NCBI GenBank assembly: GCA_964016885.1
Contig: OZ024741.1
Location: forward strand, 182,032,001 to 182,096,000
DNA from: Eledone cirrhosa
Lineage: Eukaryota
Reading direction: 5' to 3'
Length of the DNA: 64,000 nt
The number at the start of each line of letters is the position of its first letter. The first letter of the stretch is position 1. Below the pieces are notes generated by a model. It made no database searches. It was not told where the DNA came from and worked only from the letters and a program-made list of their open reading frames with translations. A program made the translations under genes and the position numbers. Positions 6,690-63,343 of this stretch are shown here, one piece after another.

Positions 6690-6920
6690 TATTGTTATAC
6701 TTTGGGAGGGTCATGTTGCCAATAAGAAACACACGCACCAGTTGCTTTCATTTCAATTCATTATATATTTATAAATTTATAAATTTACAAATCTACAAAC
6801 TTATAAATTTCTGGTTGGTGTGTTTCTTATTGGCAACATGACCCTCCCAAAGTATAACAATATCGGTTTCAACACACGATTTTAGATAAAGAATCTTGCT
6901 ACACAAATTCAGAAACGAAA
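6690..6920. mobile_element. Short palindromic insertion, same family as 29877-30770
   Basis: ATATTGTTATACTTTGGGAGGGTCATGTTGCCAATAAGAAACAC recurs inverted at ~6819-6862; one-sided tail to ~6920; (TA)n flanks. Confidence 0.75.
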
Positions 6921-7590
6921 TATATATTATATATATATATATATATATATTATATATATATATATATATGTGTGTGTATATATATATATTATAAATAAGA
7001 CAGACTGTTTTATTCGTACATGTACGTATTTCGAAGATGCAAGGGTGGGTATATAATAACCCCCTTAGCATGTTTTCACAAGATGGAGTGACATGTATTT
7101 TCCAATCCATTGATATGTTACTGGTTTAACGTGGTGTTAACATCGCTGTCAAGTACCAACTTTCATCCACTGAATAATATATATATACAGTCTATACACG
7201 GATATATGTCACATATTTCTCCACAGTAAGACGACGTGAAAACTAGCTTGGAAATAAGTCCTCCTGTTTGCACTTGCGATAAAATGAAGTGCGAAAAGCG
7301 CTGCAGATAAAGTAAAAATGTTTAAACTTAAGACATGGGAGAATTTAGGGGTTTAGCTAGAATCTTACTTTAGCTCAGCAAATTATTCTGGCAGAGCAGC
7401 CACTTTGTAATAAGAAGTCCCTCTCCGTCTTCTGATGTACATGAGGTGCATCCTGGAGCGATGTCTAATCTCTCGGAGGCGGAGCTCACCAGACCAAATA
7501 AAGAGATCAAATGTGACAAGGCCTCTGGGGAGGTTGAAATTCGACCGGAGAAGGTATTATCAAATCTCTCTCTGTGTATTTATATATATA

Positions 7591-8040
7591 CTAGCAGTGA
7601 ATCCCGGCGTTGCACGGCTAAGAAATTTGGTAATAGCACCTCCAATGAGAAACGTTTATTTGTGAGTGACTGTTAAAACTCACGAAAATATACCGACAGG
7701 AAACTTGTTTTATTTGGAGAAAATTAAGAAGTTGAAAGTACAGTTTAGCTGTCTACGTGCATTGTTCATAGAAATATTCTTTTCATACTCCTCTCTTTGG
7801 GCCTTTTAGAGTAAATGTGAAGGAGAAAGTCACAGGTTAAGTAGGGAGAAGGTTCCAGTGTCATAGCAGTAAGGTGTAGGCTACTTACCTCAAAAGTTCC
7901 TTCGGACTCTTGTCACTAAGTTACTCTTTCTCTCTATCCCTTGCGAATTCCTCGCGTAGGCCTGGTGTAGATTTGTACCCGATCCATCTACCCGATGCAC
8001 ATGTCCGTTTTGTACGGCTTTTGGAGGAAGGAGTGACCAG
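7591..8040 (-). mobile_element. Non-autonomous Helitron-like element, truncated copy
   Basis: Minus strand ends CCGTGCAACGCCGGG...CTGCTAG (subterminal hairpin + CTAG); close homolog of 8470-9160. Confidence 0.7.
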
Positions 8041-8065
8041 TCAATATTTATAAAACAAATTTGTA

Positions 8066-8127
8066 TTTTATCTGATGAAAGCGCACCAAAATTTGCCTTG
8101 GTTGCCCTTGAAATATATATAATAAAA
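8066..8127 (+). ncRNA. Minimal type I hammerhead ribozyme, family B
   Basis: TTTTAT-CTGATGA-AAG...CTT-GAAA-TATATATA-ATAAAA: stem I TTTTAT/ATAAAA, palindromic TATATA in stem III, AUA site. Confidence 0.8.
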
Positions 8128-8469
8128 TAATTATGGTTTTATAAATATAGTTTCCATTTAGTAATATATATATATATATATATATATATATATATATATA
8201 TATATATATATATATATATATATATATATATATATATATAAATTTTAGTACAGCATTGACGAAGCTATAGTATACGGCCAAGCTAGCGTATATGCATAAT
8301 CGGTCTGTAGCTTTAGCACTCGGATGATGTAAGACCCCAGAGTAATAACATTACGTTCAGACAGCTTAGCAAATCAGATATAGCAGTCGGCAGTCCGACC
8401 GCATTACGAGAGCAACGAAAATACAGGACCCAGGAAATATATATATATATATATATATATATATATATA

Positions 8470-9160
8470 CTAGCAATGTATCCCGGCGTTGCAGTGGTAA
8501 GGACATTGGTAACAGCACCGCCAATGAGAAACGTTTATTTGGGAATGCTTGTTAAAATCTCACAAAAATATACCGACAGGAAACTTGTTTTATTTGGAGA
8601 AAATTAAGAAGTTGAAAGTACAGTTTAGCTGTCTACGTGCATTGTTCATAGAAATATTCTTTTCATACTCCTCTGTTTTAACCTTTTGGAGTAAATGTGA
8701 AAGAGAAAGTCACAGGTTAAGTAGGGAGAAGGTTCCAGTATCATAGCAGTAAGGCGTAGGCTACTTACCTCAAAAGTTCATTCGCACTCTTTCCACTAAG
8801 TTACTCTTTCTCTCTATCCCTCTGGGTGCAGTCCCTTGCGAATTTCTCGCGTAGGCCTGGTGTAGATTTGTACCCGATCCATCTACCCGATGCACATGTA
8901 CGCTTTGTACGGCTTTTGGAGGAAGGAGTGACCAGCAGTACGTCGTTCGGTATTATTACGAAAAGGTGTAGCAGAGAATCCCGTGTGAACTAACAGCTCG
9001 GGAGAAAACTGCTTACCTCGAAGATTCATTCACCATCGTTCTTGTCAACGCTCCGTTTACTTATTATTTGTTAGTCTACAGTTAGATGAATGGGGGTGAA
9101 TGTTTATTGGCAAGAAGTTTTTTGAATAATAAAAAACGGGTTAAAGCGACCTACAATGTA
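8470..9160 (-). mobile_element. Non-autonomous Helitron-like element
   Basis: CTAG terminus at 8470-8473 in a TA tract; subterminal hairpin; ~450 bp shared with 7591-8040. Confidence 0.7.
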
Positions 9161-9559
9161 TCTGTGTATATATATATAATTTCGCCGGAGTATTGCTATT
9201 AGCTTTCTCCGATTATGTATTTATATATTTAATCTTGGAGCAACGATTGTTTGTTCTTATATCTCATTCTGTTATTTTGCCCGAGAAAATATCTATATGT
9301 GTCATCAAGCGATGCGCACATATGGTTATTTTTTTCATATCCAATTGAGTTCTAGCACGTGGCTTGAATTCTTTTCAGAGTTCATTGACCTGCGCATGTA
9401 TTGTTTTTTGGCGGTAGTCTCGTTCCTCCTATTTTCGAAACAGTGTGAGATTTTCTTTAGAACTGCTGGACTAACAACCTAGCAGCTCCCTCAAGCACTG
9501 ATGGTGATTATCGCTAAAATTGATGTTGATTTGGTTATCAATATTAATAGTATTGGGCA

Positions 9560-60810: not shown

Positions 60811-60950
60811 TAGCGTGGCTGAGTGGTTAGAAAATTGGATTCGCAATCATGAGGCTCCTGAGTTCGATTCTCCGACCGGGGTGATGCCTTATGTACTTGG
60901 GCAAGACACTTTATTTGACATTGCTCCTTCTACCTGGAGTTGCGACCGGT
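60811..60950 (+). mobile_element. tRNA-derived SINE head
   Basis: A-box TGGCTGAGTGG, B-box GAGTTCGATTC, then CTTGGGCAAGACACTTTA; no closing acceptor stem. Confidence 0.75.
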
Positions 60951-61610
60951 AGAGAGTATTAGCAATTGGAAAGTCTAACGGAAACATTGTTTCCTCGGTC
61001 CGATTTGGCGAAAGTCGATCGACTGTCGATATACCATATATAATTCCCGTACTCATCTTCTTTAACTCCTCTGAACTCACACACTCAACCAATTCAGATA
61101 CAACCCATCGATTCAGAAACCGAATAGTTTGCAATTTACAACTCTCAATATCAACTCGATTCACGCCAACACGTAATATGTAATTTATTTTAGAATTTAT
61201 AAAAAATATCCTCCCCAGGCACAACAGTCAGTGTGTGTGTGTGTGTGTGTGTGTGTGTGTGTGGATACGTAAATCCTGATGGAATCAAAAGAGTGCTTTA
61301 GTGATATACAACGTGTCTTAGGATTTAAAACTCGGCGGTGCCCATTCCTTCTCTAGGTGTTACACACAGTTGATTTCCTCCAGAGAAGAAGAGAAAGAAT
61401 GATAGGGAGGAAGTGTGGAGAATAAATAGTCGACTGGAACATTTTTTGTCCTCGAAAGGAGAAAATGCATAGTTGACCCCAGCGGGTTTTGAATTCAGTG
61501 TGCAGAGTGTCAGAACGAATATTGCTTTGTATTATTCGTTCTAACAATGTGCCCAATAATAACTATAAACATATGTCATGTGTCTGTGTGTGTTTGTGTG
61601 TGTTTGCATA

Positions 61611-61690
61611 CAGGGTGTCCCCCCAAAATGTATACTTTATTCAACAGCATTCTAATAAAATTGTGGTATACATTTTTTTGGGACACCTTC
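61611..61690. mobile_element. Tc1/mariner-type mini-MITE
   Basis: TA-CAGGGTGTCCCCCCAAAATGTATAC...GTATACATTTTTTTGGGACACCTTC-TA. Confidence 0.8.
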
Positions 61691-62404
61691 TATATCTTCT
61701 TTGGTGACTCTTAACAATTTACATATACACACACACATATACCCGCGCACAATGCATTTCCTATCTCACTCATTTTGCTACAATTAGAACTTCGCTTTCC
61801 AATCACAAAGTCTTGGTTTCTAACCTTACATCTGTACTTTTAAAATACTTATTTTTCAATGTTACTCATATATTTAATCATGTATGTCATTTGTACATGC
61901 ATGGTAAAATTTATGTAATTATATTCTAGAAATGAATTATTAAAATATTCTTATGTTAGATCATTTTTTGTGTGTCAGTAATCAACATAAATTATAGGGT
62001 TTTCTTAAGCAAACCCTTAATTTATCAAAATTCAAGATTCCCAGTTTGTGTGATTGCTAATGTATCCAGTAATCCTGCTACATACAGCATATCATTCTAG
62101 CTTCCAAAAACTAAATACGTCATTATTGATGACATTGGCCTACTAGTAAAATATAAAGTCCCAAGAACTATTGTGAGTAATATAAGTTCAGTTAGCAGGG
62201 ATAAATAAAAAAATAAAAAGATCACACACAGCTGCATGCACACACAAACACCAGAGCAACTATATATATATATATATATATATATATATATATATATATA
62301 TATATATATATATATATATATATAGTTCGGATCTAGCTGTCGATACGGCCGGACCACAGCCGTCGGGGTCCTGAATCTGTTCATATGTATATATATATAT
62401 ATAT

Positions 62405-62845
62405 AGTTAAAAGAATAGAGGTGTAACACACAAGTTATTATATATTGGTAAACGGAATAGAAAATGCTGATAAATTGTTCACAGTTGAAAAATGGTTTAA
62501 TTAGGAATAAAAGAGTATTAGTGATTGTATGGGTTAGTATTCAGTTGTGGTTTAAGTTTTTAAGTTTTTACCGGTTGCGCATTTCTAAATGCTTTTCAAA
62601 AATAATTTTGAGATAGAGTGTCCGTGCTGTTTGCTCTGATCTGTTTGCTCTGATCAGAGCAAACAGCACGGACACTCTATCTCAAAATTATTTTTGAAAA
62701 GCATTTAGAATGCGCAACCGGTAAAAACTTAAAAACTTAAAACCACAACTGATACTAACCCATACAATCACTAATACTCTTTTATTCCTAATTAAACCAT
62801 TTTTCAACTGTGAACAATTTGTCAGCATTTTCTATTCCGTTTACC
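62405..62845. repeat. ~400-bp near-perfect palindrome (62447-62845) with left-side tail
   Basis: Centre TGATCA at 62651-62656 with an adjacent 14-bp duplication (CTGTTTGCTCTGAT x2); (TA)n flanks. Confidence 0.92.
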
Positions 62846-63069
62846 TATATATATATATATATATATATATATATATATAGAGAGAGAGAGAGAGAGAGAG
62901 AGAGAGAGAGAGAGAGAGAGATGAGAGAGAGAGAGAGAGAGAGAGAGAGAGAGAGAGAGAGAGAGAAGAGAGAGAGAGAGAGAGAGGAGAGAGAGAGAGA
63001 GAGAGAGAGAGAGAGAGAGAGAGAGAGAGAGAGAGAGAGAGAGAGAGAGAGAGAGAGAGAGAGAGAGAG

Positions 63070-63343
63070 ACGAAACGAAAGGAGCTGTGTGGTTACTGTA
63101 AACAAAGTTTAAGATGGTAGTATGGACGAAACAATAGAAGAAAAAAAAAAGAAGAAAATAATCATTCATCAGCTGTAAAACCGAGATCAAGATGTTTCGA
63201 CGCTTAATACAAGACATCTATAAGCGGATCGGATGTCCTGTATTAAGCGCCGAAACATCTTAATCTCGGTTTTACAGCTGATGAAGGATACTTTTCTTCT
63301 TTTCATTTCTTCTATTGTTTCGTCCATACTACTATCTTAAACT
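63070..63343. repeat. Imperfect palindrome (63106-63343) with left-side tail
   Basis: AGTTTAAGATGGTAGTATGGACGAAACAATAGAAGAAA recurs inverted; arms contain CGAAAC and CTGATGA. Confidence 0.85.

What the first reader, a model, noticed from the sequence alone, without database searches (positions are those of the whole stretch)
6690..63343. Recurrent 'palindrome + one tail' insertions in (TA)n shared by many unrelated sequence families
Seen: at least 10 insertions of 120-900 bp (6690, 29877, 39991, 42139, 44172, 47025, 49276, 49756, 56321 x2, 62405, 63070) are head-to-head inverted repeats. One arm extends into an unpaired tail (usually ~35-95 nt), and nearly all are embedded in TA microsatellite. 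Most carry whole or half hammerheads. The two long PLEs follow the same rule: copy 1 has the tail on its short inverted arm, copy 2 on its ORF arm, never on both. Established: PLEs often have inverted 5' pseudo-LTRs and a 3' tail. Inference: this is one integration mechanism (two priming events at different template positions, or fold-back synthesis) that generates ribozyme-bearing hairpins at microsatellites throughout the genome.
Basis: partly seen in the sequence, partly recalled or inferred. Interest (0 to 1): 0.82.

Follow-up and report, generated by a model that had tools for sequence, protein, structure and literature searches.

The report
Head-to-head Penelope retroelement insertion footprints
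The mirror-image inserts with a one-sided tail in TA repeats are real and are likely the already described footprint of Penelope-like jumping genes (one family is tied to a Hydra-type gene), likely made by two copying starts at the two cut DNA strands, and a small bulged hairpin shared by the long tails may mark where copying starts.

Summary
Observation largely confirmed: 10 of 12 listed inserts are head-to-head palindromes with one 35-110 nt tail. 11 of 13 centred palindromes in the window abut (TA)n, against 0.6 by random placement. Exceptions: 29877 has the tail on both arms, 49756 is not a palindrome, three inserts show no hammerhead, and solo arms exist. The long copies are 5'-truncated Hydra-clade PLEs (42% to a protein matching Hydra-1_Ajap), and five short inserts are their ends. 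Raw reads of three other samples show the tail-less (TA)n end (24-30% of depth) and fold-back joints. The layout, the TA target and the two RT start sites are published (PMC8557442, PMC3846280, PMC11167929). Three copies carry the tail on the shorter arm, which excludes plain fold-back and favours dual priming. Extras: a young retrozyme-like 481-nt tandem obeys the same rule. A bulged RYTC/GARY hairpin starts 4-9 nt into the tail in 4 of 9 families and recurs, with compensatory changes, in published coral and sea-cucumber Hydra consensi. The scan found this layout and hairpin before on other DNA.

The parts
3702..6625 (.). PLE1, family A: tail-less ORF arm 3702-6008 (sense on -), 175-nt junction duplication 5833-6182, short arm 6172-6548 plus tail to 6625
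30831..34147 (.). PLE2, family A: tail-less short arm 30831-31781, 5 non-templated nt, ORF arm 31787-34068 plus tail to 34147
31786..32830 (+). C-terminal part (thumb, CxCx5C linker, GIY-YIG-type endonuclease) of a Hydra-clade PLE protein; RT core missing; in-frame TAG before the linker, shared with PLE1
33957..34054 (+). type I hammerhead fold with U3-A8 core variant (also 6435-6532 + and 3718-3815 -); activity untested
34074..34097 (+). bulged tail hairpin ACTC/GAGT with 2-nt bulge, 6 nt inside the tail (copies at 6552, 40117, 49801, 56442, 56649 -)
6693..6921 (.). family B insert: longer tail-less left arm, shorter right arm with 62-nt tail; no hammerhead
29877..30769 (.). family B insert, 521-nt spacer, both arms include the tail (differ by 8 nt), degenerate hammerhead cores
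39992..40190 (.). family A short palindrome, 57-nt arms, 81-nt tail, 3' half hammerhead
42139..42595 (.). family C palindrome, 179-nt arms with minimal hammerhead cores, 94-nt tail with hairpin at 42511
44172..44383 (.). family D palindrome, 37-nt tail, no hammerhead, no hairpin
47025..47305 (.). family E palindrome (related to C), half hammerhead at the centre, 110-nt tail with hairpin at 47200
49276..49699 (.). family C palindrome, templated junction repeat, hammerhead cores, 92-nt tail with hairpin at 49614
49756..49874 (.). family A: 29-nt tail-less inverted arm joined to tail alone; not self-complementary
56324..56514 (.). family A short palindrome, tail right (81 nt)
56577..56776 (.). 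family A short palindrome, tail left (79 nt)
62407..62847 (.). family F palindrome, 193-nt arms, 14-nt junction duplication, 40-nt tail, no hammerhead
63071..63345 (.). family G palindrome, 35-nt tail into (GA)n, hammerhead motifs out of order
8040..8160 (+). solo tail-less family C arm with hammerhead core ending in (TA)n, no inverted partner
62324..62385 (+). solo tail-less arm of a family A subfamily in (TA)n

Best explanation
These inserts are likely the 5'-truncated integration products of Penelope-like retroelements (Hydra clade shown for family A, inferred for the non-coding families), likely made when the element's endonuclease cuts both strands of a (TA)n tract and each cut end primes its own cDNA at one of two fixed start sites on the RNA. 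The distance between the two starts is the tail. The two cDNAs, stopped anywhere from about 30 to 2300 nt, would be joined head to head by end-joining (microhomology, filler or small templated repeats) and filled in. When both stop early at a similar place the product is a short palindrome with one tail. In family A the stops cluster about 55-60 nt in, at the foot of the hammerhead stem II extension. Shown here: anatomy, family-fixed tail ends, Hydra protein, TA bias, read support for both features. Established elsewhere: two starts and two-strand cleavage and extension in vitro for a Poseidon element. Inferred: dual priming in vivo, mobilisation in trans of the non-coding families, and the tail hairpin as start signal.
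For: Tail-less and tailed ends fall at the same nucleotides in 6 family A inserts and in families B and C. The tail lies on the shorter arm in PLE1, 6690 and 49756 and on the longer arm in PLE2 and 47414; a copy cannot hold sequence its template lacks. Junctions: 7-nt microhomology (47414), up to 11 shared nt plus a 175-nt duplication (PLE1), 5 non-templated nt (PLE2), 14-nt duplication (62405). Protein: 575 homologues at E<=0.001 of 1303 candidates; 42% identity over 337 aa to P0034, whose sequence matches Hydra-1_Ajap segments. Reads from three RAD samples: 3869 of about 12950, 3583 of about 12970 and 3450 of about 14520 reads leave at 34059-34068 into (TA)n; opposite-strand joints cluster at 33996-34021. 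An Illumina contig matches the unlisted 39487 palindrome locus with 0 differences over 297 nt. PMC11167929 (parts 1-2 of 4 read): both strands cut and extended, predicted dimer, two adjacent internal starts equal the tail ends.
Against: No empty target site was seen, so TSD or deletion at the target is unknown. Only family A is tied to a protein, and both of its copies lack the RT core and share a stop codon. 29877 has nearly the whole tail on both arms, and solo arms exist (8040, 62324). In one search, reads with heterogeneous sequence upstream of 34004-34015 (1892 in X8) outnumber opposite-strand joints (171 among listed rows), so many copies may not be palindromes, although AATT cutting and poor amplification of hairpins bias this. 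The in vitro data come from a different clade. Fold-back followed by trimming of one end fits the same anatomy.
Confidence: 0.62

Rival explanations
1. PLE products, but made by self-priming or fold-back (on an antisense template or the cDNA) at local palindromes, with the endonuclease then trimming the tail from either end when it resolves the intermediate.
For: Proposed in PMC3846280 (Discussion read) and, for the tail, in PMC8557442 (passage). Several centres are short palindromes or hammerhead stems (39991, 56321b, 47025, 62405). Arms within an insert share private variants (39991).
Against: Needs an extra trimming step at a fixed nucleotide. PLE2's junction has filler and no microhomology. 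In vitro the tail ends are RT start sites, not cut sites.
Confidence: 0.22
2. The short palindromes are non-autonomous master elements (mini-PLE or retrozyme hairpins) that are transcribed and re-inserted as whole units.
For: Three family A copies fold within about 5 nt of the same place and read joints cluster there. The terminal 130 nt are about 16-fold deeper than upstream in WGS contigs. Two tail-less arms share one C>G change.
Against: Centres differ among copies, and arm lengths in family A run from 29 to 2270 nt. The shared change has a chance expectation of about 0.07 (rough estimate). A stall at stem II explains the clustering.
Confidence: 0.1
3. MITEs or fold-back DNA transposons with symmetric TIRs, or long-read fold-back artefacts.
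For: Palindromic shape; the 47414 arms are 100% identical.
Against: Ends are asymmetric with family-conserved tails, arms match PLE termini, 1-9 substitutions separate most arms, and both the TA end and fold-back joints occur in raw reads of other samples.
Confidence: 0.04

Closest known systems
Hydra clade of C-terminal EN+ Penelope-like elements (Craig et al. 2021, PMC8557442; passages, section 11, Files S1/S2 rows, File S7 consensi in parts 52-53)
   Same: CxCx5C linker, CxxC and CxH flanking E and N, type I hammerhead, (TA)n target; Hydra-1_Obim is listed from an octopus
   Different: A different family (window motifs not found in the supplement); U3-A8 hammerhead core; tails of 62-110 nt rather than 30-40; many 120-460 nt double-truncated palindromes
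PLE insertion unit: inverted 5'-truncated pLTR plus one-sided tail (PMC8557442 Fig. 2 legend; PMC3846280)
   Same: Head-to-head inversion, palindromes at the junction, tail on one end only
   Different: Those papers invoke self-priming or endonuclease resolution; three copies here exclude plain fold-back
Poseidon_Ac in vitro system (Frangieh et al. 2024, PMC11167929)
   Same: AT-rich target, two internal starts defining the tail, both strands extended, start in a stem-loop
   Different: Other clade; inverted products not explained there; its stem-loop was not compared with the hairpin here
LINE-1 twin priming and 'dual priming' (PMC2837659, passages)
   Same: Two priming events at the two nicks give an inverted, end-joined insert; 'dual priming' uses two RNAs
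   Different: Twin priming gives non-overlapping pieces of one RNA with poly(A) and TSD; here both arms copy the same 3' region from two fixed internal starts
Non-LTR retrozymes (PMC7229834 passages; bioRxiv 10.64898/2026.07.22.740005 part 1 of 5 and passages)
   Same: 47414-49022 is a non-coding tandem of 481-nt units, each with a type I hammerhead
   Different: It carries the PLE inverted arm, tail and TA target; 'tail' does not occur in the preprint by the search listing

Membership tests
Hydra-clade PLE (family A) | C-terminal GIY-YIG-type endonuclease behind RT thumb | tested here: met
   (42% to P0034); Pfam gave no hit for the pieces
Hydra-clade PLE (family A) | CxCx5C linker; CxxC and CxH flanking conserved E and N | tested here: met
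   CNCPDRSIC, CNLCSEE, CKH; 105 of 120 homologues have CxCx5C; definition
Hydra-clade PLE (family A) | RWK and DKT motifs, RT core, length under 3 kb | not testable with these tools
   both copies are truncated upstream of the thumb and no genome is held
Hydra-clade PLE (family A) | type I hammerhead near the 3' end | tested here: met
   three-way fold with U3-A8 core, variant known in PLEs; cleavage not tested; Rfam negative
Hydra-clade PLE (family A) | (TA)n insertion | tested here: met
PLE-derived insert (families B-G, R) | inverted 5'-truncated arm plus one-sided tail | tested here: met
   exception 29877
PLE-derived insert (families B-G, R) | linkage to an RT-EN gene of the same family | not testable with these tools
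   no ORF attached in the window; no genome held
Non-LTR retrozyme (47414-49022) | two or more tandem non-coding units each with a complete type I hammerhead | tested here: met
   criterion
Non-LTR retrozyme (47414-49022) | self-cleavage and circular RNA | not tested
   no RNA run was laid
MITE | symmetric terminal inverted repeats at both ends | tested here: not met
   family-conserved unpaired tails
MITE | fixed target-site duplication | tested here: inconclusive
   (TA)n flanks hide any TSD; no empty site seen

The most novel reading that the evidence does not exclude
A bulged RNA hairpin (RYTC, 3-6 bp stem, 2-nt bulge, GARY), conserved from molluscs to corals and sea cucumbers and present twice per Hydra element, fixes the two reverse-transcription starts of a dimeric enzyme. 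One cDNA per target strand then explains tail, inversion and palindromes in one step, and retrozymes ride on the same signal.
Probability: 0.45. Interest if true: 0.68.

Novelty: new member of a known kind. Interest (0 to 1): 0.42.

Why it matters
The layout itself is published, so the headline claim is not new. How PLE inversions and tails arise is still called open in PMC8557442 and PMC11167929, and this window offers testable handles: copies that exclude plain fold-back, a covarying hairpin at fixed distance from one end, and a retrozyme-like tandem bearing the PLE footprint. In practice, such palindromes are easily mis-annotated as MITEs or microRNA hairpins (many sub-threshold miRNA hits).

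Tried and rejected
The generic inverted-repeat tool was swamped by (TA)n, so masked BLAST was used. Rfam found no hammerhead, so hammerheads rest on my motif search (7 type I hits against 0 in 10 shuffles) and folds; only 1-2 of 6 folds beat shuffles clearly. Pfam missed the PLE pieces. A search of longer proteins with the endonuclease alone found none of 89 candidates. No genome is held, so no genome-wide tally was possible. Empty sites were not found: RAD reads miss the unique flanks and contigs break at repeats. The read-end pile at 34015 looked like a truncation hotspot, but it sits on AATT, as do piles at 39918, 39948 and 41208, so I treat it as restriction cutting. Small-share run X1 covered mainly repeats. 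Arm-versus-copy divergence of PLE1/PLE2 (1-3 substitutions per 350 nt) cannot tell the models apart. Whole-tail folding energy is not generally special. The hairpin pattern is not enriched window-wide in its relaxed form (19 against mean 10.2, max 20); only its position is informative. It is absent from tails B, D, F, G and 39487. A second hairpin beyond the tail end of 47414 (near 48548) is only a weak match that fails my pattern.
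Full report
Observation. Masked self-BLAST and arm-by-arm alignment confirm 10 of the 12 listed inserts as head-to-head repeats with one unpaired tail of 35-110 nt, arms of 54-193 aligned nt and 1-9 substitutions. 29877 has a 521-nt spacer and the family tail on both arms (8 nt difference). 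49756 is a 29-nt inverted arm joined to a tail alone. PLE1 has the tail on its short arm, PLE2 on its ORF arm. Of 13 centred palindromes found without regard to the list, 11 abut (TA)n (random mean 0.57, max 4 in 2000 trials); one palindrome arose in 20 shuffles. Hammerhead content is mixed: 2 whole, 1 degenerate, 4 halves, 1 fragment, 1 unclear, 3 none. Rfam detects none.

Identity. The two long copies encode the thumb and endonuclease of a PLE, with a shared in-frame TAG and no RT core. Read through with X, the protein has 575 homologues among 1303 candidates. It is 42% identical to P0034, whose sequence matches Hydra-1_Ajap in the Craig supplement. The CxCx5C, CxxC and CxH motifs and (TA)n targeting define the Hydra clade. 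Five short inserts are ends of the same family A, with tail-less and tailed ends in register. Its hammerhead folds as a type I three-way junction with a U3-A8 core, a variant reported in PLEs. The other families (B, C, E, D, F, G) are assigned to PLEs by anatomy only. D, F and G have 35-40 nt tails, D and F lack hammerheads, and they may belong to other TA-targeting clades such as Naiad (inference). The host is probably a cephalopod (inference from recalled repeat content and earlier notes; not tested).

Independent reads. On the family A 3' end, 24-30% of read depth in three RAD samples leaves at 34059-34068 into (TA)n, and the rest runs into the tail; the tail end itself was masked. Opposite-strand joints cluster at 33996-34021 in reads and contigs (171 reads in X8 among listed rows, from few loci). 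Heterogeneous upstream ends are more numerous (1892 in X8), so palindromes may be a minority of copies; hairpin bias and AATT cutting blur this. One contig matches the unlisted 39487 palindrome locus exactly, but that sample may be the assembly's source. No empty site was obtained.

Mechanism. A fold-back copy must be a subset of its template, yet the tail sits on the shorter arm in PLE1, 6690 and 49756 and on the longer arm in PLE2 and 47414. Junctions show microhomology (7 nt; up to 11 nt), filler (5 nt) or small duplications. In vitro a Poseidon protein cuts and extends both strands of AT-rich DNA and starts at two adjacent internal sites that bound the tail. I therefore favour dual priming with end-joining (0.62) over self-priming plus trimming (0.22), palindromic master elements (0.10) and MITE or artefact (0.04).

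Beyond the finding. 47414-49022 is a very young non-coding insert with an inverted 638-nt arm, two 481-nt tandem units with canonical hammerheads and a 107-nt tail: a retrozyme-like element with the PLE footprint. A bulged hairpin starts 4-9 nt inside the tail in 5 of 10 tails tested, or 4 of 9 families (A, C, E, R); shuffled tails give 0-8 of 2000. The pattern was derived from A, C and E and relaxed to admit R, so the test is post hoc. The R stem shows a compensatory change, and a related copy at 44714 closes with a UUCG loop. By eye it is also in 3 of 6 published Hydra consensi (Hydra-2_Amil, Hydra-2_Ajap, and twice, 61 nt apart, in Hydra-1_Ajap), nearly in Hydra-1_Crog, and not clearly in Hydra-1_Amil or Hydra-1_Obim. 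I noticed the motif. Earlier scan notes report it too and add the twin arrangement, which I could confirm only in Hydra-1_Ajap. Searches found no paper describing it; most subscription papers are not held.

Papers seen: PMC11167929 parts 1-2 of 4; PMC8557442 passages, section 11 and supplement rows and parts 52-53; PMC3846280 passages and Discussion; PMC4209133, PMC7229834, PMC13282606 and PMC2837659 passages; bioRxiv 2026.07.22.740005 part 1 of 5 and passages; the rest as listings only.

Verdict. Real, mostly as described, and a known PLE footprint in new Hydra-type families. The value lies in the evidence for dual priming and the candidate start hairpin. Interest 0.42.

Noticed in passing
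window 47414-49022: Young retrozyme-like tandem (2 x 481 nt, canonical hammerheads) with inverted arm and 107-nt tail in (TA)n
   Followed up: yes
window 39484-39680: Older unlisted palindrome next to (TA)n with a tail-like extension and a degenerate hairpin; locus matched exactly by a contig
   Followed up: partly
window 44554-45299: Tail-to-tail inverted duplication (97% identical) centred on a CA/TA/TG microsatellite, right arm split by a repeat at 44970-45157; carries a hammerhead-like core and the tail hairpin with a UUCG loop
   Followed up: partly
window 39228-39455 and 58409-58699: Inverted duplications centred on microsatellites (68-nt perfect unique arms around TC/GA; ATCT/AGAT arms around TA); origin unexplained
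   Followed up: no
window 27806-28402 (-): Second Hydra-type endonuclease fragment (40% to P0034), beside a 73-nt duplicated and inverted segment in TA at 28329-28491
   Followed up: partly
window 32398-32400 and 5357-5359: Both PLE copies share an in-frame TAG just before the CxCx5C linker: a defective source mobilised in trans, or read-through
   Followed up: partly
window 19360-19773: 79-nt inverted repeats with an inner 62-nt palindrome, not in TA; possible MITE
   Followed up: no
window 11222-14332 and 20626-21135: Broken Helitron-like ORFs (PIF1 helicase hit); related terminal repeats at 7591-8040 and 8470-8935
   Followed up: no
window 1-3074 (-), 34448-38540: LINE fragments (RT and endonuclease-like; RVT_1 hit at 36831-37853)
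   Followed up: no
window, about 20 copies, e.g. 15946-16608, 29264-29646, 39757-39962, 50602-51066: Abundant ~190-nt SINE-like repeat, very deep in reads
   Followed up: no
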